A stretch of 64,000 nt of DNA from assembly GCA_964016885.1 (NCBI GenBank), contig OZ024742.1, positions 59,210,001-59,274,000 on the forward strand, written 5' to 3'. The translations under genes were made by a program, and so were the position numbers. Of the stretch, positions 50 through 59,519 are shown one piece after another. Origin of the DNA: Eledone cirrhosa (Eukaryota). The notes under the pieces are model-generated. The model saw only the letters and a program-made list of their open reading frames with translations, ran no database searches and was not told where the DNA came from. The stretch's first letter is position 1. Each line of letters opens with the position of its first letter.

Positions 50-97
50 GCTTTTATAGGACTAGAACTGTTTCATTCAAAACAAATCATCAGAAAA
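50..97 (-). ncRNA. Degenerate type I hammerhead ribozyme, same family as 48473
   Basis: Minus strand: uuuu-CUGAUGA-u uug uuuu gaa u-GAAA-cag uucuaguc cua-UA-aaag. Stems II and III carry mismatches. Confidence 0.55.
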
Positions 98-148
98 TTT
101 CTTTTGAATGAAACAGTTCTAGTTCTGTGGTTACCCTGATTGAATCCG

Positions 149-300
<152 letters not shown>

Positions 301-5731: not shown

Positions 5732-7862
5732 ATGCAGAAACAACATCTGAATATTTCTACAAAGAACATACCCGTACCAAGCAGGAAAACATACCTAAAA
5801 CTCCTGATACAGAAAACAGACGCGTTCATTAAAAGGTTGCGGTGGCATGCCTTTTATTTCGATAATCCGCGAAAAGCAGACAACAAACAGGATAAATTTG
5901 GGTTTAAAACCTATAATAACCCCCCGTGAAACCCAGCATTGCTACCCTTCGAAAATGATGTCTTGGAACTCATACGGAGTATCAAATTTCGGAATAGGAA
6001 CAATTCCTTCCAGCAGGACCTGAAGAATAGAATTCGTTCTATTAAGGATTCTAATGCCGTGCACGTCCATTCCGACAAAACTGGCAACCTATATCAAGTG
6101 GAGCGCAGTACTTACCATCAACTGCTACATAATGCTGTAACTAAGGATTACCGTAAAACTAATCGGTGCGTCATCAATTTAATCAACGATGCTGGGTTTA
6201 AAATCACATCTGATCTCAACATCATGGACCGGACCGAACCTCTGGACCCTTTTTCTCCCCACTTTACCCTGAAGGATCACAAATCCAAATTTTCCGAACA
6301 ACCCCTCTATTCGGCTTATTAACCCTACGAAGTCCTATTTAGGTAGACTTAGTAAAACGATTCTTGATAGAATTATACCTGAAATTAGAAGTTTGGCCCC
6401 ACTTGCACTGTGGAACAATTCTTTCGCGGTGATCGATTGGTTCAACGTCATATGTAACAAGGAACATTGCCGTTTTATCCAATTCGACATCAACAATTAC
6501 TACTCCTCCATCACTTTACCACTTCTCCTTAGAGCTATCAATTTCGATAACACACTCACAGTAGTTAAGGATTTCGAAGTTGATGTCATCCTCAATGCCC
6601 GTAAGTCGGTGATTAATTTCGACGACTCTATTTGGATTAAAAAATCCAATAGTACCCCATTCGACGTGAGTATGGGCGCCAGCGATTCTGCGGAGGTTAC
6701 TGATCTTATCGGCCTTTTCCTTCTTTTCTCTATCAAGGACGAATTCCCCAACGCGGGCGGTGGTTTGTACCGTGATGATGGTCTTTTGACTATGACTAAG
6801 TGCGGGCCTCGTGCTTGCGACAGGTTCAGAAAAGAACTCACAGCCTTCTTTAAAGGCTTCAACCTCTCTATCCAGGTTGAGGCCAATCCCTCGGTCGTTA
6901 ATTACCTCGACGTTACCCTCAATTTATTGAATGGGTTGTATTACCCGTATAGAAAGCCGAATGATACGCTTAATTACATAAGTAAGCATTCCAACCATCC
7001 TGCCAGCATAACCAAGAACCTGGTAAGAAACGTTTCGTTGAGGCTTTCCCGTCTATCTACTAACGAGCATATTTTCAACGACCATTCCACTTATTACAAT
7101 GAAGCTCTTGCTCGGAGTGGATTTGTCGATAAGGTAGCTTATACAGTGTACGAAAATAGACCTAGAAGAAATAGATCCCGTCGCATTTGTTGGTATAACC
7201 CACCATATAATATGGAGGTAGCCACACCATTAGCTAAGATCTTTCTTTCCCTTATTACGAAGCATTTTCTCCCTACACATAAATATAGTAACATTTTTAA
7301 TAGAAATACTATTAAAATTTCTTACTTTACGACTCCCAACCTTGCACATAACATCACAGCTTCAAATTTAGCTAAACTACCTAGCCGTAGGAATACGTGC
7401 GACCCTGTAGTTAGTACTAACTGTAATTGTAGGAATCGCGTTGATTGCCCCCTATCCGGGAAATGCCTCTCTAGTAACATTGTCTACAAATGTAAGGTTG
7501 AAACACCCACGTCCCGTAGGGCCTACATAGGGTTAACCGCCAATAGATTCAAGCAGCGTCTTTACATGCATACCCATTCTTTTCGTTACCCTCTAAGAAG
7601 GAATATGACGTCACTTTCGGCTTATATCTGGAGTCTAAAAGACAACCACACCCAATATAAGCTACACTGGGAGATCCTAGCTTGGGCTAGATCGTATAAC
7701 GGAAATAAAAGACCATGTGACCTCTGCGCCGCTGAGGCCCTGGAAATACTCTACGCCACAGACCACATCTTTAACAAAAAATCTGAGGCAATTTCGGCTT
7801 GTAAATATAAATTGCACAAAACTTTCCTGTATTACAGCCCCACGTTATACCCTAACGGATAG
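5732..7862 (+). pseudogene. PLE reverse transcriptase plus GIY-YIG endonuclease (~710 aa, two lesions)
   Basis: KNIPVP...FIKRLRW, SDKTGN, FDINNYY, FDVSMGASDSAE, GLYRDDGL, CNC-x5-CPL, IVY...AYIG, CDLC. In-frame TGA at 5927-5929 and a frameshift near 6286. Confidence 0.93.
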
Positions 7863-16639: not shown

Positions 16640-16780
16640 AACGAAGGATTTGTGGTAAGGAACCAGATGGACCATAACGCACCAGAGTACTCGATACTTA
16701 GGGTAGTAGAGTGGGTAATAGGAGAAAGTATGACCCCGACGGCAGAGCTCAAGCCGTTTCGGCGGCTATTTCTGGACTCA
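16640..16780 (-). mobile_element. PLE-type 3' end with the 3' half of an HHR; related sequence at 4874-4942, 27508-27663, 40603-40801
   Basis: Minus strand GAAAC-ggc...gcc-GUC-ggggu, then a shared tail ending ccttcgtt-(AT)n. Confidence 0.7.
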
Positions 16781-17768
16781 AGTAAGAGTTTTTTTTAGTC
16801 TGGTAAATAAATAGCCGAACTTTTTAAGGGGGTACTTCCTTATATGGGAAGGTTGTAGTTGTCAAGACGATTGGTCAAAATTTGTAGCAGACACAGAAAA
16901 GTCTATCATGGCAGTGGGTGCGGGGTGGGGGTGGCTGAACTTGCCTGTAGAACGATAGGGGACTGGGTAGAGCCGGTCAAGCGTTGAAGGTGAAATCTAC
17001 ACGGCAAATTCTAAGGAATGTGTATGAAAGTAGGCCAGAGGAGGTTGGCGAAAAAAGGTTTCTTTAGGAAAAAGGAGGAGGGACGTTATAGAATTAGTAA
17101 ATCAAATGGGATTAGGGGACAATGAAAATATATATATATATATATATTCACAGGAAGGCTGTAAAAATGTTTATTGACATGAACATTTCGTATATTATTC
17201 AATATACAACCCAGGTCTTGTATCACTCTTGCTATGTTAGAGTATTAAAAGCTCTCATTAATTTCGGTCTGTATGCAAATGAGCTTCATAAGTTGATGTT
17301 CATAAACATAAATACTATAAGTTTTCAACTTATTTTCATCTTAGCATCCAAGCGGAGTTAGCCCCTCTGAAGGTGGTTAACGATCCCAAAACAACCACCT
17401 GGTTGCTAACGACCAATAATGACACTCACCACATCTTAAGTTCATTGCAACGTTGTAAATAAGTTTCTTTAATGAACATTTCGTTCTGTTCATACCGCCC
17501 TGCACGCGATACCCATGTGATTTTCCTCTTTTAACACATATGCGTATTTTAGTCTTCTAAGAAATTTAGTGGTAAGGATTGTATTGGTTGTACATCCATT
17601 GATAAGCAATGGAACCAATGTCTCTCTTCACTGAATTGTGAAACAGTTCTACCCTAAAGCTGCCTGGGTGTTGGTAGTTATCATAGTCGGTTCGTATACC
17701 TTAATTTATCCTTTTAATTGAGTTCTGTGAACCGTAATATTTATAGTTAATATATTCTTCACCTTGAA

Positions 17769-18135: not shown

Positions 18136-20883
18136 GAAAGAGCAGAGGGAGAACTAGTTAGAAATTTAGACGAGGCGCTTAGCAAAGGCATCGCGACCGA
18201 CGTACATGCGGCGAAATTGGCCCTTGACCAATTCTTCAATGCAAAGCACGAAGGCTGCGTTGTCAGAGCTAGGGTGCGTGCTCACAGACACGAGGGGACG
18301 AAAGCCGTTCAATGCGCCTGAGTGGCGAAGGCGCGTCGTGGCAACAAAGCCACGATCCGGTCTTTGGTGGACCACGACGGGCGCATGCTACTCGATCCCG
18401 GGCAAATGTGTGAAGCTTTTCAGCGACACTTCGCACAGCTGTTCGGGGGCCGCGGCGGGCCGGATCGAGGGATGGACTTTAGTGTCTAGCTCGACGGACT
18501 GCCGCGGCTCTCGGCCACTGAGGCGGAGTGTTGCGAAAAGCCGATAACAGCCGCTGAAGTACGGGAGGCAATGACTGGCTGCACAAGGGGTAAATCGCCT
18601 GGTTTGGATGGTCTGCCCTATGAACTTTACGTACAGATGCCAGACTTGTTCGGATGCCTCTTGGCGGACGTCTACTGCAACTGGCAACAGAACGGGAGAA
18701 TTCCCAGCTCTGTGAGCCGAGGAGCTGTGGCGCTGCTGAGAAAGAATCCGAACAAGGAGGAGAACATAGATAACATAGATAACAAGATTTTGGCCAAGGT
18801 GCTAGCAAAGAGGTTGGCGCTTGTCGTTGGTGGTCTGGTGGGAGAGGCGCAGACATGCGCCATTCCCGACAGATCCATCCACGACAACCTCCACCTCATG
18901 CGATACATCGTAGAGAGGGTAGCTAGGGAACCTGGCACGGGTGGGTCCTTGATCAATTTAGATCAGTCGAAAGCTTTCGATAGGGTCGACCATCGTTACC
19001 TAGCGGCAGTCCTGAGGGCGGCTGGCTTTGGGCCCGTCTTCAGAGGCTGGATCGCTGCCATGCACAGCGACATCTGCTCTGTGGTGAGAGTGAACGGTCA
19101 CCTGTCAGAACCGTTCAACATCATGCGCTCGGTCCGCCAAGGATGTCCCCTCTCGTCCCTCTTGTACGTATTGACTCTCGAGCCATTACTGCACAAGCTG
19201 GAGACGTTGAGGGGAGTCCCGCGCGAACTAGGATGCGGAAGATCCGTGTCAGCATATGCGGACGATGTCACCGTAGTGGTGTCGAACGCCAAACACATCG
19301 AGGCGATCGGCACTACACTAAGAGAATACGAAGCGGTGACAGGAGCAATGATCAACCAGGAAAAGTCAGTGGGCCTGCAGCTCGGCACCTGGAGAGGCAG
19401 GTCCATGCCGTCCAACAGCGTCGTCGGGCGCTGGACGGACGGACCGGTTAAATTGCTAGGGGTCTGGTTCGGTCCGGACCTCCAGACGGACAAAAACTGG
19501 GACGAGGTGACGAGCAGGGTGGCTTCTCTCACCCAGAAATGGGCGGAGAGGAAGCTATCCCTGAAAGGTCGAGCGGAGGTGGCTAACGCGTACATCGCGT
19601 CTGTCATCTGCTACCGCCTAACCGTCGTACCTTGTCCTAAGCCTCGCCTGACTGCGCTGGAGCGTTTGCTCTTTCGCTTTTTGTGGAAGGGACGTGCTCC
19701 GATGGTCAGGCGGTCCATCTGTTGTCAACACCCGCTACGTGGAGGGCTGGGCATGCCGTGGCTGATGATGCGCAGGCACGCGCTCAGGCTACGACATCTC
19801 CACCTCTTCCTCGACGGTGATCAGGTGTGGTCGCCGTTTGCTAGACGCGTTTTTCCCCAGCTCGTTTCCTTGACGGAGCTGCAGTCCTGGGTCAAGCGAA
19901 GACCGAGAGGGAGCGCCTGGAGACTGGAATGTCTTCAGGCGCTCACAGCCCTCGACCAATCGGGCAATGTGATCGGTGGAAACTCCACCTCGGCGTTCTA
20001 TAGAGGATTAGTGGAGGGGAAGAGCGACGACGTACTTGGGGAAACTCTAGGCGTCGACGAAAATCAACTAGCCAATCTCTTCGGAAGAACCTTCGGGCCA
20101 GGGCCTATGGACAACTTCCAGAAATCTCTGGCCTGGCAGTGCTACCGAGGAGCCTTGCCAGTTCGGGATAAACTCTACAGGCATGGAGGTGCCGTCAGCC
20201 GGGCATGTCCGAGATGCGCGCAGGGCGACGAAACCGTCCTGCACGCACTCGTCCAGTGTCCGAAAATTGCTGACTTGTGGGTTTATGTCGAACACCTGCT
20301 GTCGCGTTTAGGACGGATCCAGCTATCATCTGAGTCTATCGTGAGGATTGCCCCGCCCTCCTCCTTTAGCCGGGAAGGGCAGGCAGTTTTTATCTGTCTG
20401 GTGGCCATGGCGAAAGAGATAGTATGGTGGACACGTTTGAAAGGGCTGAAGACGAGCACTTACCTCTTCGGTGATGCTCTGATTGACTTTTTCAAATTTC
20501 ATTTGAAAAGGAAAATCAGAGTAGAGAAGGAAGTGCTCTCTTCCCAGCATTTTGTTGAAAGATGGGTGAGAGAAGCAAGAATGGCCCGAGTGAATGGGCC
20601 GACTCTGAGTATATATCTGTAAACTAAAGGTGGAAAACTGGGAGAGGGCACTTGCCTTGGTGGTCAGAGTCATTGTGGCTTTTTACTGGGCTTTCTCCAC
20701 AAATGTCCCTCCGAAGTCTCCCCCCTATTGGGGAATTTTTCATTGTTATTTTCATTGTTATTTTTGTTACATCCTCTATTTTTGTTTTTTTTACACGCAG
20801 AAATGCCCATTTGTACCGTCCTGCATTGTCCTGCACTGTCCTTAATGTCTACTTTATGTAAACCCTTGTGGTTAATAAAGAAA

Positions 20884-22864: not shown

Positions 22865-24395
22865 ATATATCTCACGTTAGAGATGAATAGCGTACGTGTA
22901 GGTTTGCTCAACGAGTATAAATTACATTCCGGAGAAAATGTAGAAAAGATGAATATAAAATGAAAGTGCTTTTATAAAGGAATTTATTAGGTATTGACAT
23001 ATGTTTCTGTAACAGACGGAATACCTCTGTACCGCTGCTTGCGTAATCATATAATGTTAGCAAGTATTCAATAGCAAATGTATAATCAGTTGTCACTTCT
23101 TCAGAGATATTGGATAAATTGGAAAAAATCAGAAAAATTAAAGTATTTATATTAGTTGTAAGAAAGGAAGAACAGAAGGGATAGTATATGACAGATGGCA
23201 ATTCAATTTGCTGGTAAACAAGTATATAGAAGGTTTTTAATGAGAATACAATGAGTATATGGTTTATTTTATCTAAATAAGAATTTTTGGGAGTGCCTAT
23301 TTTAATCTATATTTGACCAATTGAACAATGGACAGGGTTGGTCGTTTGGTGTAGTAGTATTAATATAGTAGTATTAATCAAGTAAGGAAGAGAGAGATTT
23401 TCACTGCTACTGTATAACAACAATGCTGGTAACCTGCTGGTATATGCATTAGGGAATTGAATTAAGAAATCTCATTTTATCTATAGCAGTTTATATTAAA
23501 TGGTAAAGAATAGAAGAGTTGATAGAATTAAGACTAATAGAAAATGTTAATATGTAGATGGAGACAGGCGTTCAATCCTGGTAGCGTTTGTAATATGAAA
23601 ATGTAGATTTCAAGCGATGGTTACAGTATAACGATCGTTCTATTCTGTTATTTAATAAAATATTTTTGGATTTCATAATACAAAATATTTCCATAATACA
23701 CAATTTACAAAATTCCTGTCCTTGGAAATATGCAGGGGCAAATACTATTATATCCCATTTTAGGTTAAATTGTTGATTATTTTCGCGCAGCTGCCAAGCT
23801 TTGTCTGCAAGTGTTGTTACATAACGCTGGTTTTCATGTTTTATCGAGTAACGATGTCTATAAAGGTGAGATTTGAAGGAGGTAGCTGTAGACCCCACAT
23901 AGTACCACTTCTGGCTACCCGATTCGATAGTACATTTGTATATGATGTTGCGTTCAAGACACTGATTGTTCAACGGACACATTCCTGGTTGGACACAGTT
24001 ACAGTTATAATTATGCGTTGTTGTATTACCATGGATGGGTTGATGAGGTTGCTTAGGCAGGACGGGATGTTGTCTGTTGTTTTGTGATGTTATAGCCGAT
24101 GTTTTACGTGTATTGTTATGTGTTGGAAGGCGTTTATACAACCGTTTTGCGTTAAGCTTTTTTATATGTTGTTCAATATTAGGGGCGGTTGAATATGAAA
24201 GTCGAATAGTGTTAGGGTTTAAGATTTTATTATATTTATGTGATGTTGGAAAATGTTTTTTAACTAATCGAAAGAATTGTGAGGGTAGATTGGTTTTAAT
24301 AGAGTTGTTATAGACCGGGTTGTACCATATATACTCTTTACATCGCCTTCTGTTTGGTGGTGTGCGACTATTAGTGTGTCTATTGCGGTAGTGTA
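22865..24395 (-). mobile_element. 5'-truncated Hydra-like PLE (thumb end, GIY-YIG, 3' UTR)
   Basis: ORF 23572-24141: CNC-x5-CPL, IIY...YYVG, CKLC, CNH. Upstream WYNP...KHFP...NTIRLSYST lies in another frame. Confidence 0.88.
22989..23110 (-). ncRNA. Hammerhead-like motif with 76-nt stem II insert
   Basis: CUGAAGA-a gugaca..(76 nt)..uguuac a-GAAA-cauaug-UC-aauaccu. Stem I is imperfect. Confidence 0.6.
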
Positions 24396-24615
24396 TGTAT
24401 GTAAAATTATAAATGCGAGGAAAGAATCGAGAAAGAACTACCTATTTGTTCTTCAATATATATATACGCACACGCACACATATATTTGTATATATGCATG
24501 TACACATACACTTACACACGCATGTATGTACATATTTATACGTATGTAAGTGCATTAATGTATGTATATATATATTATATATATGGATTTATATATTATG
24601 TTTGCAGCTATGTAT

Positions 24616-37786: not shown

Positions 37787-37930
37787 AGGGTTGACGGGCC
37801 CAGCATATTTATCAATGCCAGTACCGGTTGTATCTCAGCGCACTCAATGGGCAATGTAAGATACATTACCAGAGTATACACATGGTTATTTTCCTCAACA
37901 AACACACGTAAAACGGGTGCCTATAAGGTT

Positions 37931-38040
37931 CCCGGACTCGAGTTTCTGCCGCACTAATGCAGCAGTAAGGTGCACTGCACCATCTGTCTGCATATATTAT
38001 GCAACAATGCAGAATCGGCTTATGCGTCTTCATCAGCGGG
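37931..38040 (-). ncRNA. Type I hammerhead with 69-nt stem II insert
   Basis: cccg-CUGAUGA-a gacgca..(69 nt)..ugcggc a-GAAA-cucgag-UC-cggg. Confidence 0.82.
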
Positions 38041-39658: not shown

Positions 39659-39842
39659 TATATATATATATATTTATATAGGATAACAAGGTATCGTTTA
39701 AGGTAAACCAGTTAGAGGTTGTGAGTACTCTGTACTGTGGATAGTTTTAACGTACGGCGTTGTTTGACTCAACAAGAAGTTTCCTTAATTAGGTGGCGAG
39801 TTTACGACAATACCTATGCAGGTGATGATTCTTGGAGTAATA

Positions 39843-40583
39843 ATAGTGAAATAGTGAAGAACAACATGGTCGGCTGTACAAAAGGGGTTTTATTTACAGT
39901 ATTAACAATTGTTTCATTGAACAGGTGTCCCTTTCACTTTTTATTCTCTATTTATCTATTCTCCTATCCTTTTTGTCTCATCCTCGAATCCTTACTCTTT
40001 ATACACCATCTCCTGTTCTTTCTCTCTTTCTCTCTTTCTTTTTATTTTGATCCTTTACTATTTGTTCTACTTTTTGCTTTTTATTTCGCCAATTCATAAA
40101 GTCAATACACTATATTAGTACAGCGTCCACTCACCAAAATTTTGTCTATCATATATCGCATCCCTTTTCCTGTTATTGTTATCATTACTGTCATCACTAT
40201 TTTACACATCCACTTACTCACCATTATAACTTCATCTACCACTACTTGTATCAATAACCGTAATTTTTGTCTTTTTATTATTTTTTATTTTAATTTTTAA
40301 AATTTTTTAAATTATTTTTTATCATTTCATTATTTTTTATTATTGGTGTTATTGTTTTCATTTACTTGATCCTCCGACGCATCTATAAATACCAGTACCA
40401 TGTGTTACATCCTTCAGTATTCCGATGATTTGATCAGAGACACACACTGTATTTAAGGTCGAGTGACGCAATTTCTAGTGATTAGCGGCCTTTAGACTCA
40501 CCTGATCAATGAAACAATTGCTAATACTGTAAATAAAACACTTTTTGTACAGCCGACTATGTTATTCATCACTCTTTCACTAT
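39843..40583 (+). mobile_element. PLE 3' UTR/pLTR with 5' inversion, family of 49568-51520
   Basis: 39843-39927 is inverted relative to 40499-40583. The body is similar to the reverse complement of 49568-50210. Confidence 0.85.
40415..40529 (+). ncRNA. Variant hammerhead (CCGAUGA) with 64-nt stem II insert; U16.1 mutated to C
   Basis: caguauu-CCGAUGA-u uugaucag..cugaucaa u-GAAA-caauug-CU-aauacug. Confidence 0.78.
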
Positions 40584-40681
40584 ATATATATATATATATA
40601 TATAACGAAGGAAATGTGGTAAGGAACCAGGTGGACCATAACGCACCAAAGTACTCAATACTTGGGGTAGCAGAGTGGGTA

Positions 40682-40796
40682 ATAGGAACCAGTAAGACCC
40701 CGACAGCTGAGCTCAAGCCGTTTCGACGGCTAATTCTGGACTGTCCAGAATTAGCCGTCGAAACGGCTTGAGCTCAGCTGTCGGGTCTTACTGGTT

Positions 40797-42412: not shown

Positions 42413-43501
42413 ATACTTTGGAAGGGTCATGTTGCCAATAAGAAACACACGCACCAGTTGCTTTCACTTCAATTTATTATAATAAATTTATAAATTTAGG
42501 AATTTATAAATTTCCGGTTGGATGGTTGGTTCCACAACCAGATGGTTGTTTATATATTGTGATGGTTCTTTCGTCACACATTCTGTGACCTCTTCAGTAA
42601 CTGGGGATTATTTTCTTTGTTTTTGTGCCTCTCCTTTGTTCTGTCCTACGCCATTTTGTTTCTGTGTGTGTGTATAGATAAGAAATGTATAACCTGTAAA
42701 TTAAGCCCCCATATTAACTGTAAAACTAGAAATGTAGTATATAGCATAAGATGTACTGAAGGACAATGTAGAGACAAAAATATAGTGTACATAGGTGAGA
42801 CAGCTCGTAGTGTAGGGGAACGGATAAATGAACACTGGCGAGACCTTCAAGATAGTAAAGAATCATCTGTACTCTACCAACATGCTAAAATAGAACATAA
42901 GGGTAAATTAGAGAACATAGAAATAAAAATAGAATCTACACACAGAAAAGACGCAATGTTTAGACAAATCACAGAGGCAATAAACATAAAAGAATTACAA
43001 CCAAAATTAAATAGAAAACATGAGTGGAACAGCAACATCCCAACTTACAATTAAGGACAAAATGAAAACACACATGCACATAGAACAAACAAGCAACCTG
43101 TAACATGTAAATAAACAAATAAATAAATGAATATAAACACACACAGACACCCGGATCTGGCGCATGCGCAGACTGAGCACACAACACACACACAGAAACA
43201 AAATGGCGTAGGACAGAACAAAGGAGAGGCACAAAAACAAAGAAAAGAATCCCCAGTCACTGAAGAGGTCACAGAATGTGTGACGAAAGAATTTGACAAT
43301 ATATAAACAACCATCTGGTTGTGGAACCAACAAACCAACCGGAAATTTATAAATTTCTAAATTTATAAATTTATTATAATAAATTGAAGTGAAAGCAACT
43401 GGTGCGTGTGTTTCTTATTGGCAACATGACCCTCCCAAAGTATAACAACATCGCTTTCAACTCACGTTTTCAGATAAAGAATGTTGCTAAACAAATTCAG
43501 A

Positions 43502-49538: not shown

Positions 49539-49567
<29 letters not shown>

Positions 49568-49573
<6 letters not shown>

Positions 49574-51520
49574 AAGATTGAAGAATAACATGGTCGGCTT
49601 TACAAAAATGGTTTTATTTCAAGTATTAACAATTGTTTCATTGATCAGGTGAGTCTAAAGGCCGCTAATCACTCGAAGTTGCGTTACTCGACCTTAAATA
49701 CAGTGTTTACCTCTGATCAAATCATCGGAATACTGGAGGTTTTACATATGGCATTGGTATATATAGATACAACGGAGAATCAAAACAATAACATCAATAA
49801 TAAAAGATAATAATAAAGAAGTAAAGAGGTTAAAATGAAGATGATATAGTTATGAAAAATAAGTAAAAAAATAATAAGTACAGAATACGATAGCTGATAA
49901 TAGTGGTGTTGGTGGTGGTGATTAAAGTTACAGTGGTGAGTAAGTGTATGTGTAAAGACGTGGTGAGGGTAGAGATAATACTAACATGAAAAGAAACATT
50001 AGATACATACATACGTGGTGGTCAAATCTCAGAAGGTTAGAGTAGAAAATGAAAAATAAAAAATAGTAACAAATGACAAATAAAAGATTAAAAATAATAA
50101 ATTAATAGTTAAGTGAGAGGGGAAGAGATACAAGGATGAGATATAAGGGGTAGGGCTAAGGACGGGGAAGGAGTAGATAGGTAGATAGAGAATAAAAATT
50201 GAGAGGGAGAGTTTTGATATATGAGTGTGGTAAATGTCTCGCAGCCTGATTAATGGGGTTTATGTGGCTTTAGGGAGAGAGAGTGAAAGAAGGTTAGGAG
50301 ATTTATGATGTCGATTTAGTGACCAGTTGGTCAGTTGACAGCTAATAACAGTGGAGTGGTATGTAGTCAGTACATTAAAATCCAGATGGTCCGGCTTGAA
50401 TTCTGAGATTGCTGGATCGAATCATGTTGGTTTGAAATTTGCGAACTTGGTAGCTGCTTTGTGCCTACAGAAAATTGAACGTTCTATTTTGCTGTTAAGC
50501 AGCATTTTATCATATTTTAAAATATGGAACAGCTTCATATTGCAAAGTCCGCAGTGGGACATTCCATTGTTGTAGGCCTTTGCTCCCGATAATTTCGACC
50601 AGCTAATCCCATATTCCTGGTTTGTGTCCTTAAGCTGGCAGATTTTATTGGCCAGCGTTGTTGAGTTCTCTAGTCTACGTTTCTACATAGAGTGTCTGTG
50701 AACGTACCACCTTTGTTTGAATTCCCCAGCCGTGGAACCTATGTAGTGCCATGCTAAGTTGCCCGAATTTATAGTACACAAGTACACTGCACTTGATTCC
50801 AGGCATCTATTTTGTAGTTGGCACTTATCCGGCAGGTGGCAGTTACAGTTTGAGGCCTTCCTGTGTGCAGGTCCTCCGTTGCAGTTTTGTATGTTGTTAT
50901 GGATGGGCTGAGATTTAGGCTTATTAGTGTTTTGTTGCGATGCGCCCTGATGTGTTTATGGTGGTGATGTTGTTATGTGTTGTTTTGTATTTGGTGCTAA
51001 GGTGTATGTTGGTAGGTTATTTTCCTTCGAGATTTTTTTATAGTTGATTTTATGTATGTGTGATTCTGTGATGGCTGCAGTAGAGTAAGAGAGTTTGATA
51101 GTTTTTCTGTTAAAGATTCTATGGTATTTGTGTAGTTTAGGGAAGGTATTTGTGTAGTTTGTAGAACGTAGTTTGGTTTTTATAGAGGAGTTGAATATTG
51201 GATTGAACCATAAGTTTTTCCTATCTCTGGATTTTCTATAGTTTCTAGGCGTCCTTATACTAGTATTCGGTTCAGTTATTTCTGGTGCTCATTGTCTATT
51301 TCTATGTTTAGTTCTATATTTGTTATTTCTATAGGTGTGGGTAGTGTAGCTGCGTTAGGTTTGTTGTTGCTGTCTCTATCTGGTATGTATTTGAACCCCT
51401 CCTTATGGCATGTCTTATGTAAAGCTATGTTATAGTAGTTTGCGTGTTCGTTAAAAATCTCTAGGTTAGAAGATAGGCTGAATATCTGAGGGATATACTA
51501 TGTGTTATGGAGTTAATTAT
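49568..51520 (-). mobile_element. 5'-truncated Hydra-like PLE
   Basis: Minus-strand translation near 50850-50455: CNCHLPDKCQL..CLESSAVY...WHYIGSTAGEFKQR...CGLC...FCRHK, with a stop. The 3' end abuts (TA)n. Confidence 0.88.
49622..49734 (-). ncRNA. Variant hammerhead (CCGAUGA) with large stem II insert and intact GUU site
   Basis: aguauu-CCGAUGA-u uugaucag..cugaucaa u-GAAA-caauug-UU-aauacu. Confidence 0.82.
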
Positions 51521-51586
51521 GGAGAGTTAACAATGCAGAGTACTCACAACCTCTAACTGGATTACCTATAACAATAACTTGTTATC

Positions 51587-51639
<53 letters not shown>

Positions 51640-51640
<1 letters not shown>

Positions 51641-52190
51641 CGGCGATGAATTAGTTTTGCGAGGTTTTTTATATGATATCGTGTGTCGAAACAAATATTG
51701 TTATACTTGGGGAGGGTCATATTTGTGTAATATTGCCAGAATTAATAACAGAACACACTCACTGTTTGGTTGGTTTTCGCTTTTCGCTTCTGTGTCTTTT
51801 ATATCGGTAATTTAATTTATTCGCTCCTCAATGTTGCCATTGACTGACCAACGGAAAAAAATACAGATACAATATAGACACAAACACATATATATAGTTT
51901 ATCAAAGTTCTTTCGTTGCACATCTGCAACATCGTCAGTGGTGCTATTATTTCCTCCCATTGCATTGTATTTTCTACGCCATCTTTATTTAGTCTGTTTA
52001 TATATTTATTTATTTGTTTATTTTTTTTGTCTTCTTTGCGCATGCGTTTGCGTGTGTGTATTGTGTTTTGTTTAATGTGTGTTCGTGATTGGGTGACTGT
52101 GTATTGGTTAATGTATTCTATCTTTACTAGTGTGTGTTTATATGTATTTGTTGTTATTGTGCTTGTGTATGTCTTTATTTATTTATCTAT

Positions 52191-52233
<43 letters not shown>

Positions 52234-53770
52234 TACTTCTCTTAGGTCAGTGTTGTTTGTTTGGGTGTTGTTATTCCATTCATTTTTTCCTGTTTAGCCT
52301 TGGCCTTCTAAGTTCTATTTCACTGGCCTCTCTGATTTGCCTATCTGCTGGGTCATTTCTATGTTTAGATATTATTCTAATTTCTATGTTGTCTATGTCA
52401 CCGTCGTGTTGTTGTCTGGTATGTTCGTATAGTACTGAACCGTTTTTTCGTCCTTTTAGTTCCCCCCAGTGTTGGTCTATCCTTTCACCTATGCTACGAG
52501 CTGTCTCGCCTATGTATGTTGTTGTCATGTTTCTGCAAGTACCCTCTGTACATAGACTAAGTTTCTAGTTTTACAGTTTATGCGGGGGTTTACCTCACAT
52601 ATAATACATTTCCTATTAGTACAGTGGGTTTTCTTAAAAGGGTATGTTTTGCTGATCAAGGATTTTATGGCGTTTCCTGGCTTTTCTACCACCTTAATCT
52701 TTAAGTGGGTCTTTCTCAGGGCCTTTCTACACTGGTTAGCTAATTTCCCTCCAGGGGTAGCGTCCACAAACATGACACTCTGGTATCTCTGGTTGTCGTA
52801 CCATGAGGTGGCTTTCCCTATCTTATGTCTAGCCTATCTAAGCTATTCCATGATTTGCTCCTGTATAATGGGCAAATTCCTTTCATGTCCAGTTCTATGA
52901 GGGTCTTATACTTCTCCGTGGCTCCTTCGTATACTCTGATTCTGTCTCTTTGGTTGTAGCCAGAGAACTGCATGCGGTTGATGAAGTGTTGGATGTGTCT
53001 TTCCATTTCTGTTGGGTCGCACATGCGGGACACGTTCTTCATCACTCGTACCAAGTCTGCGATCAGAATATTAAACTTAGCACTAGTGGACATTGCTGAG
53101 TTTTTGAGTATCAGGTATTTGGAGGCCATGGGTTTAGCATAGTGTGAGTGGAGAATTTGGGCTCTCTCGTCTATAGTGTTAATCTAGAGTTCCGTGTCTA
53201 ATACAGGTAGTCTATTGTTAGGGTGTTTGGAAGGGTAGTCGATAGTTACAGTTATACGCTGGTGTATGGAATTAGCTATCTGCTGGATGCTTTCCATTGT
53301 GCTAGGTTCTAAATCAAACTTGTTAGTGCTCTCTTGTGGGGATGCTCTTATAACTATATTGATATCGTCTACGTAACGAGAGTACATGATGAGGTCTATG
53401 GAGCTCTCATTAAGGAGATCTTTAAGTCTCCTTTCCCACCATACCATAAAAAGGTTGGCAACGTCACCAGCTATGCTGACGCCAATGGCTGCTCCCTCAT
53501 TTTGGGTGTAGATCTTCTCGTTGAACTTGAATATGTGGCCCTTTAGGGTAGTTTTGATACTAGCCCCTATTGCATGTGCGACCATTTTTCTTACCTGATC
53601 ATTGTTTTGGGGGGTCCGTATAGCTTTGGTCCACCCAATCCACCTTCCCATGGGAGTCTTTTTAGCCATTGAGGTTATGGTAGAGGGGTCTATCTCTTAT
53701 GGGTCTACTGGGGCAGAAACGTCTAAGGTCATGGCTGTCTAGGTAGTCAGTGTCGTAGGTAAGTCTAAGT
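51640..53770 (-). mobile_element. 5'-truncated PLE of a second type (YVDD RT, Cys-rich linker, GIY-YIG); HHR motif at 51902-51941
   Basis: QNEGAAIG..IAGDVANLFM, RYVDD, LPVLD, CTNRKCIIC, YIGETARSIGERIDQH. Broken into four ORFs. Confidence 0.92.
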
Positions 53771-58542: not shown

Positions 58543-59519
58543 GATAACTCAATGGTCAATATCTTAACATCAACTTCTATTTCACAGAAGTTACCCCTGT
58601 AAAAGTTACCCCCGCTATATGATTATTCCGTCAATTATTCAATAGTGAGGAAAATGCACAATTATCGTTGAAAGTCCGTTTTTGTTTTGGTTGGTGAATT
58701 GTATTACATTTGACAGTTATTCTTTATTTGCTAAAGTGTGATGAATTTAGGGTCTCACTTTAAATCCCCGCTTTGTAGTGTGTAACAACCTTGTTTCCTA
58801 GTTTAACTTTTTGAACATTTATGTTCTGTATATTGCATACTATCATTAAACCATTGCGTCCTTGTAACAATAAGCAGCAGTGTTAGATAATTCTTCGTCA
58901 GTTGAATAAACACTTACTAATTATTATTCACTAAGTTCTTTCAAAAATTATTCGAGATGAACGGAATTAACTTCACTACACTGACATTTCTCGCTAGGTA
59001 AGTAATTATATTGGTGATACCTGCTAATAGCTAGATCTAGAATTACATCCAAGAAATCACCTATGCTATGATTCGCTTTAACAGTGGTCTTTCAATCTAT
59101 CACTTTTATGCTGAATGGGTAGTTGATCATCAAGGTAAATGCTAAGATCTGTGAGAGAAAAATTCTTTTAAAATTTAAGATGCATGATCCTATTAATGTA
59201 AAACCTCACCCCCATCATACAGCATCAAGCCATGAGTGATGGCATTAATCTATACATGACCACTACGTTTAACCAACAAAAATTTATCGAACTGTAGCAA
59301 AGTGTTCCTATCAGCAATAACAATATTAATGATCCGGTTATTGATTGGAATTAATTCTTTACCAAATTCTAAAGCTTTCCGAAGATGTAAATCTGGTCAT
59401 ATACGGGTAGAACTTTGTAACAACGAATGTTGGGTTTACCGAAAGTCCTTTAAAAGTTGCTCTCGTGATAGATGTATACATTCAAACATAGAGACGTTTT
59501 ACTATTTTACTTACAGCAA

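What the first reader, a model, noticed from the sequence alone, without database searches (positions are those of the whole stretch)
40415..40529. CCGAUGA-core HHR with a conserved 64-nt structured insert
Seen: two diverged copies (also 49622-49734, attached to a GIY-YIG remnant) keep C4, the U.U junction, an 8-bp stem II, a 6-7 bp stem I and an insert with an inner aagguc/ggccuu helix, while flanks diverge more. This is the third family here with a large stem II domain.
Basis: partly seen in the sequence, partly recalled or inferred. Interest (0 to 1): 0.75.

Follow-up and report, generated by a model that had tools for sequence, protein, structure and literature searches.

The report
Long-armed hammerhead heading a retrotransposon RNA
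This is a decayed copy of a hammerhead (predicted self-cutting) RNA motif carried by a jumping gene with about two thousand copies in this animal genome; its second arm holds an extra 64-base hairpin kept by paired mutations, likely sits at the very start of the element's RNA and likely serves as a grip for protein, while the odd core letter comes and goes between sub-families.

Summary
Both copies are type I hammerhead motifs in the terminal repeat of a Hydra-clade Penelope-like retroelement; at least 1,855 genomic copies carry the arm (control 0). Across 14 sub-families the 64-nt insert keeps a 13-pair hairpin: 13 of 15 lineage-level pair changes preserve pairing, 4 on both sides, against 99 of 190 private changes. 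The catalytic core and the palindromic stem III stay fixed. Added here: 18 of 89 copies begin at stem I, 31–32 nt after a TATA-like box, and only 2–3 at the cut site, so the motif likely opens the transcript and uncut RNA is what gets copied. Intron and long-range-pairing ideas found no support. Cleavage and binding are untested. I found no paper describing such an arm, but this scan noted it before on other DNA of the same genome. New variant of a known kind.

The parts
40384..40391 (+). TATA-like box, 32 nt before the first A of stem I (consensus recalled)
40415..40421 (+). Stem I 5' strand; inferred transcript start at about 40416 (initiator-like YCAGT)
40422..40429 (+). Core CCGAUGA (C4) plus U10.1
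40430..40437 (+). Stem II 5' strand (8 bp)
40438..40501 (+). 64-nt arm: variable linker; invariant GUA (40449-40451) and UAGAC (40493-40497); 7-bp helix 40455-40461/40486-40492; AG/G internal loop; 6-bp helix 40464-40469/40478-40484 with one bulge; 8-nt loop
40502..40510 (+). Stem II 3' strand plus U11.1
40511..40522 (+). GAAA, palindromic stem III, cut triplet; this copy has C in place of U16.1 at 40521 (predicted inactive)
40523..40529 (+). Stem I 3' strand
39931..40583 (+). 5'-truncated element end (3' UTR plus terminal repeat) that stops at +169 in (TA)n
39675..39927 (-). Inverted arm of the same insertion: leader +84 to +334, joined to (TA)n
49622..49734 (-). Second hammerhead copy, intact core, GUU site; predicted cut between 49628 and 49627; arm 49649-49712
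49758..49765 (-). TATA-like box 31 nt before stem I of the second copy
49567..51523 (-). 5'-truncated Hydra-clade Penelope-like element (end of RT thumb, linker, endonuclease, 3' UTR, terminal repeat)
50437..50862 (-). Broken GIY-YIG endonuclease: CxC-x5-C linker, YIG, CxxC, CxH; stop codon inside
51530..51593 (+). Inverted leader piece (+271 to +334) at the 5' junction of the second insertion

Best explanation
This is a decayed copy of the type I hammerhead motif in the terminal repeat of a Hydra-clade Penelope-like retrotransposon, whose loop II is replaced by a 64-nt hairpin that keeps its base pairs across sub-families and likely serves as a binding handle for protein, most likely the element's own RT-endonuclease. 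Shown: identity of the element, the fold by covariation, the fixed core, the lability of C4, and the pile-up of copy ends at stem I, +169 and +334. Inferred: a TATA-initiator promoter in the upstream repeat starts the RNA at stem I, so hammerhead and arm are its first ~107 nt; the ribozyme is weak on its own (2-bp stem III that needs a dimer, U·U junction, often C4), so most RNA stays uncut and is reverse-transcribed from two internal starts; low activity is tolerated, which lets position 4 drift between C and U. Inferred and least sure: protein grips the arm's invariant loops and bulge to assemble the particle and to time the occasional cut.
For: Element: RWK, DKT, CxCx5C, CxxC/CxH motifs, (TA)n targets, 3,204-bp tandem unit. 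Fold: 97.8% of cells paired in the arm, 5 pairs with two-sided change, 0 of 500 shuffles reach the score; RNAalifold finds the same helices unprompted; 13 of 15 lineage-level changes keep pairing vs 99 of 190 private ones, Fisher p=0.013; 27 G·U vs 5 A·C cells fix the strand as the sense RNA. Unpaired letters GUA, GAG, UU, UAGAC, and the bulge position are invariant over 12 sub-families while linkers change. Core C3, G5, A6, G8, A9, GAAA, U16.1 invariant, N7 free. 18 of 89 copies chosen only on the 3' flank begin within -7..-3 of C3; 2-3 begin at the cut site; 29 ends are spread over the ~96 nt between. Arm-less copies exist but only as 3 different singletons. In the Anolis element uncut RNA is the main template and the hammerhead cuts only with protein (PMC11167929).
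Against: No binding or cleavage data. In the Anolis element the minimal RNA starts at +20 of the ORF, past most of the hammerhead, so the main protein site there lies downstream. The whole leader to +334 is about as conserved in sequence as the arm, so sequence conservation does not single it out. The arm folds weakly in single sequences (z -0.5 to -3.4; whole 49622 motif z -0.85). The sub-families form one lineage, so there are only 4 independent two-sided events, one of them at CpG sites on both sides; sub-family C has a fixed A·C mismatch. The TATA-like box is clear in A, B, D but weak in F-H. Published Hydra elements work with 3-10-nt loops, and D. virilis Penelope has a TATA-less internal promoter (abstract).
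Confidence: 0.5

Rival explanations
1. The arm is part of the ribozyme itself: its internal loops dock on stem I or on the partner in a dimer and replace the loop I-loop II contact of ordinary hammerheads, raising activity without protein.
For: Invariant internal-loop letters; GUA/GAC resembles a bulged-G docking motif (recalled, not tested); stem III palindrome can form a 10-bp duplex (-8.8 kcal/mol); peripheral contacts are thought to offset variant cores (PMC3088659 passages).
Against: The conserved loops lie 8 bp plus an 8-11-nt variable linker from the core, and stem I is only 4-7 bp and begins at the inferred RNA end; no covarying Watson-Crick contact to flanks was found; few copies begin at the cut site; arm and C4 are not linked.
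Confidence: 0.2
2. The arm is a brake: by separating the two halves of the core by 80 nt and favouring a misfold it delays cutting so that capped, full-length RNA survives.
For: The lowest-energy fold pairs the core with stem III (-23.1) ahead of the active fold (-19.0); every inserted 3' end contains an intact, uncut hammerhead plus 60 nt; C4 is reported to lower activity.
Against: A brake needs length or stability, not invariant unpaired letters; minimal PLE hammerheads are already very slow (PMC4209133).
Confidence: 0.12
3. The insert works as DNA or as an intron: a downstream promoter element, or a short GT-AG intron whose removal leaves a normal loop II.
For: It lies at +23..+86 of the inferred start; sub-families B and C have a GT..AG span of 56 nt and all have one of 47 nt; Penelope carries a 5' UTR intron next to its hammerhead.
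Against: 0 of 6 short-loop genomic copies match a precise splice product; the first GT is absent in A and D-H; a 13-pair hairpin would fill a 47-nt intron; G·U-rich compensation points to sense RNA structure. Penelope-like copies usually retain introns, so this is not excluded.
Confidence: 0.1
4. The arm is a tolerated passenger; pairing is kept by template-switch correction of a quasi-palindrome or by shared descent.
For: One lineage, few independent events; about half of private changes also keep pairing.
Against: Wobble pairs, a bulge and an internal loop persist instead of being perfected; arm length is nearly constant; arm-less copies did not spread.
Confidence: 0.08

Closest known systems
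Hammerheads of Hydra-clade Penelope-like elements (Craig et al. 2021, PMC8557442, File S2)
   Same: Type I motif near the 3' end, short palindromic stem III, U·U junction (14 of 26 rows), U at the cut site (10 of 26 rows), (TA)n targets.
   Different: All 26 rows have U4 and a loop II of 3-10 nt; here 62-64 nt with a covarying hairpin, and C4 in about half of the copies. The longest loops in that file are 29-34 nt, in spike-moss PLE-X elements.
Minimal hammerheads of metazoan PLEs (Cervera and de la Pena 2014, PMC4209133)
   Same: In the terminal repeats, 7-8-bp helix II, palindromic helix III, predicted dimer cleavage, core variants known (U3-A8).
   Different: No large loop II domain or C4 variant in the parts read; G10.1-C11.1 is typical there.
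Poseidon element of Anolis (Frangieh et al. 2024, PMC11167929)
   Same: Both DNA strands primed, two internal start sites, uncut RNA as template: matches the inverted arms and copy ends seen here.
   Different: Short loop II, ORF starts inside the hammerhead, starts 30-40 nt apart; here the ORF starts at about +403 and the starts are 165 nt apart.
U4C hammerhead variant of a viroid (cited in Perreault et al. 2011, PMC3088659)
   Same: Same core change; lower activity in vitro, sufficient in vivo; U10.1-U11.1 also reported as natural.
   Different: A viroid variant with tertiary contacts, no large arm.

Membership tests
Type I hammerhead ribozyme | Three stems round the core, open at stem I | tested here: met
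   stems I and II change in step between sub-families
Type I hammerhead ribozyme | Core C3, G5, A6, G8, A9, G12, A13, A14 fixed, N7 free | tested here: met
   invariant in 12 sub-family majority rows
Type I hammerhead ribozyme | U4 | tested here: not met
   C4 in both window copies; U4 in 47 of 110 family copies; natural U4C is published
Type I hammerhead ribozyme | A15.1-U16.1 pair and NUH site | tested here: met
   met for the family (GUU 182, GUC 8, GUA 2 of 201) and for 49622; not met for the 40415 copy (GCU)
Type I hammerhead ribozyme | Self-cleavage | not testable with these tools
   no assay; genomic ends at the cut site are 2-3 of 89
Type I hammerhead ribozyme | Match to an Rfam hammerhead model | tested here: not met
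   none at gathering score in the window; none at E<=5 in 3 loci
Hydra clade of Penelope-like elements | RWK motif and DKT in place of DKG | tested here: met
   RIRWKAY and KADKTSN in family copies L141, L127; definitions
Hydra clade of Penelope-like elements | C-terminal GIY-YIG with CxCx5C linker, CxxC and CxH, no CCHH | tested here: met
   CNCHLPDKC, YIG, CGLC, CRH; Pfam gives no hit
Hydra clade of Penelope-like elements | (TA)n targets, tandem and inverted arrangements | tested here: met
Hydra clade of Penelope-like elements | Placement in an RT tree with published Hydra proteins | not tested
   published proteins were seen only as text
Spliceosomal intron of PLE 5' UTR | Precise removal at GT-AG | tested here: inconclusive
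   0 of 6 short-loop copies are precise; no RNA data
Non-LTR retrozyme | Non-coding tandem monomers | tested here: not met
   attached to an RT-EN ORF in a 3.2-kb unit

The most novel reading that the evidence does not exclude
A natural protein-gated hammerhead: the ribozyme is the first 107 nt of the retroelement's capped RNA, and binding of the element's RT-endonuclease to the stem II arm decides whether the cap is cut off, sorting RNA between translation, copying and decay, with C4/U4 as a heritable activity dial.
Probability: 0.15. Interest if true: 0.8.

Novelty: new variant of a known kind. Interest (0 to 1): 0.45.

Why it matters
Why Penelope-like elements keep a hammerhead that is not needed for insertion in vitro is an open question. 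This family offers natural matched pairs (same arm, C4 or U4), a separable structured domain, a predicted transcript start and two sharp copying starts, so cleavage, binding and priming can be tested on a 340-nt RNA. It also shows that standard hammerhead models miss thousands of motifs when loop II is large. It remains a variant of a described element, and this scan has flagged it several times in this genome.

Tried and rejected
Rfam: nothing at gathering score, only microsatellite-driven miRNA noise at E<=5. Pfam: no significant family for the endonuclease pieces. Intron in loop II: no precise spliced copy. Long-range pairing of the arm with the leader: candidates of 5-8 bp (arm 46-53 with +145..152 or +172..176) have no two-sided change and many G·U pairs; a 4-bp match of arm 71-74 with +137..140 changes in step but does not extend. 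C4 as mere CpG source of U4 copies: explains scattered U4 copies but not the excess (18 U4 vs 4 G5A in the first 100 of 518) nor the U4 clades. Sequencing runs: no RNA holder listed; three contig runs of unknown kind from one sample were laid and say nothing on expression. The bacterial promoter scan is not apt for this genome. The pile-up at -42 (11 copies) is an artefact of a truncated reference copy and was counted as long copies. Lünse et al. 2017 could not be read.

Full report
Observation. The window comes from a 3.0-Gb animal genome; its repeats and the published Octopus Hydra element suggest a cephalopod, which I infer and did not establish. Both motifs are present as described. They agree at 106 of 113 positions, the flanks at 46 of 54, 29 of 40 and 132 of 208. 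The 40415 copy has C in place of U16.1, found in 2 of 201 aligned copies, so it is predicted inactive; the 49622 copy has an intact core and a GUU site. Rfam finds nothing.

The element. The 49622 motif ends a 5'-truncated element with a broken endonuclease. Longer family members carry RWK, DKT, a CxCx5C linker, CxxC and CxH, the features that define the Hydra clade in Craig et al. 2021 (passages). Locus L141 holds two hammerheads 3,204 bp apart round an RT-endonuclease frame that starts about 403 nt after stem I. Both window insertions show the usual layout: an inverted leader piece joined to a truncated main copy between (TA)n tracts. An arm pattern has 1,855 exact matches and a looser one 3,126 with some double counts, both against 0 for the control.

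The arm. From 226 loci I extracted 232 distinct arm-bearing copies, aligned 201 with a homologous 5' half (6 rearranged ones removed by hand) and sorted 192 into 14 sub-families by diagnostic letters; 9 stayed unassigned. On 26 of them, chosen as near-majority representatives plus the two window copies, the named structure has 97.8% of arm cells paired, 5 arm pairs with two-sided change, and no shuffle of 500 reaches the covariation score; the count of pairs with two-sided change is reached by 34 of 500, and slid controls fall to 24-45% paired. RNAalifold finds the same arm helices. Counted as events along the sub-family tree, 13 of 15 pair changes keep pairing, 4 on both sides, against 99 of 190 private changes (p=0.013); the two breaks are in sub-family C (4 copies), one of which is a real fixed A·C. 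G·U outnumbers A·C 27 to 5, which fixes the sense strand. The unpaired letters GUA, GAG, UU and UAGAC are invariant while the linkers turn over. Limits: one lineage, few events, weak folding of single copies, and a downstream leader that is about as conserved.

The core. C3, G5, A6, G8, A9, GAAA and U16.1 are fixed in all 12 larger sub-families, N7 varies, and the stem III palindrome changes once; it can form a 10-bp duplex, as expected for dimer cleavage (PMC4209133 parts 1-2 of 4; review passages). Position 4 is labile: 81 of 518 exact matches to the A/B 5' half have U; among 110 copies not chosen on this position 48 read CCG, 47 CTG, 5 CCA, 10 other. U4 forms clades (Bu, C, E2, F), C4 dominates A, B, D and H (at least 19 changes on a 99-row tree with mostly weak support, CpG decay included). 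The direction is unrooted: one gain of C4 followed by CpG reversions, or several gains. In File S2 of Craig et al. all 26 Hydra rows have U4 and loops of 3-10 nt, 14 have U·U and 10 have U at the cut site. U4C and U10.1-U11.1 are published natural variants (PMC3088659 passages).

Where the RNA starts. Of 89 copies picked only on the 3' flank (from the first 100 of 894 matches), 37 run well upstream, 18 begin within -7..-3 of C3, 3 just before that, 29 are scattered through the motif and 2 begin at the cut site or one base after, with a third 2 nt before it among the 29. A TATA-like box lies 31-32 nt before that point in sub-families A, B and D, with an initiator-like YCAGT on it (consensus recalled); it is weak in F-H. 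Copy 3' ends fall sharply at +169/+172 (93 and 23) and +334 (81). I infer that the hammerhead opens the transcript and that uncut RNA is the usual template, as found for the Anolis element, whose hammerhead also cuts only with protein (PMC11167929 main text).

Mechanism. Best guess (0.5): a weak, dimer- or protein-dependent ribozyme whose arm is a protein handle. The docking idea was first met in this scan's earlier notes; what I add is the selection test and the position at the RNA start. Against it, the Anolis protein needs RNA downstream of most of its hammerhead. Rivals are a catalytic helper (0.2), a brake (0.12), intron or promoter (0.1) and passenger (0.08). The intron idea had a fair look: 6 copies with short loops exist, 3 lack the whole arm through micro-repeat deletions, none is a precise splice product. 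No covarying long-range pairing was found.

Literature and novelty. Eight searches gave no paper on a hammerhead with a 60-nt structured loop II in such elements. I also saw passages of PMC6765202 and PMC13725137, abstract and one section of PMC2377424 and part 1 of 5 of the 2026 retrozyme preprint (supplements closed). Lünse et al. 2017, the paper most likely to list core variants, was not held; supplements of the 2014 paper were not read. The scan has reported long-armed hammerheads, including a 64-nt one and the C4 change, elsewhere in this genome; a sequence look-up gave nothing. Verdict: real, structured, under selection; a new variant of a known kind; interest 0.45.

Noticed in passing
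window 39675 and 40583; 51593 and 49567; L141: Copies end at two sharp points, +169 and +334, 165 nt apart, far longer than the 30-40-nt tail described for other PLEs; in both window insertions the inverted arm uses +334 and the main arm +169.
   Followed up: partly
window 22988-23110 (-): Decayed U4 hammerhead with an ~82-nt arm after another Hydra-type endonuclease ORF (23572-24441); weak hit to my model, E 0.007.
   Followed up: partly
window 37930-38036 (-): U4 hammerhead with an 83-nt arm of different sequence.
   Followed up: no
window 59373-59460 (+): CCGAAGA (C4) hammerhead with a 55-nt arm, unrelated in sequence; a second C4 family.
   Followed up: no
window 4500, 27962 (-), 37579, 54103 (-), 56-99 (-): Hammerhead motifs with 12-31-nt stem-loop II; 27962 shares the CAAUUGUU stem III with a short loop.
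   Followed up: no
window 5930-7862 (+): Near-complete Hydra-clade RT-endonuclease frame in two pieces; Pfam gives no significant hit.
   Followed up: no
G000:C1:249747397-249747443, 352602831-352602877; C2:36859225-36859272: Head-to-head copies that turn at or next to the first bases of stem I; in 2 of these 3 one arm has U4 and the other C4.
   Followed up: partly
L061, L065, L066: Three independent arm-less copies made by deletion between short direct repeats, each leaving a normal-sized loop: natural deletion controls.
   Followed up: partly
window 40598-40790: Short palindromic insert between (TA)n tracts with near-perfect inverted arms, repeated elsewhere in the window (16658-16798, 27535), probably a two-ended insertion of another element.
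   Followed up: no
window 18490-20622 (+), 42563-43054, 52131-53696: An L1/Tx1-type RT ORF of 710 aa and remnants of another PLE clade with YIGET endonuclease (family labels recalled).
   Followed up: no
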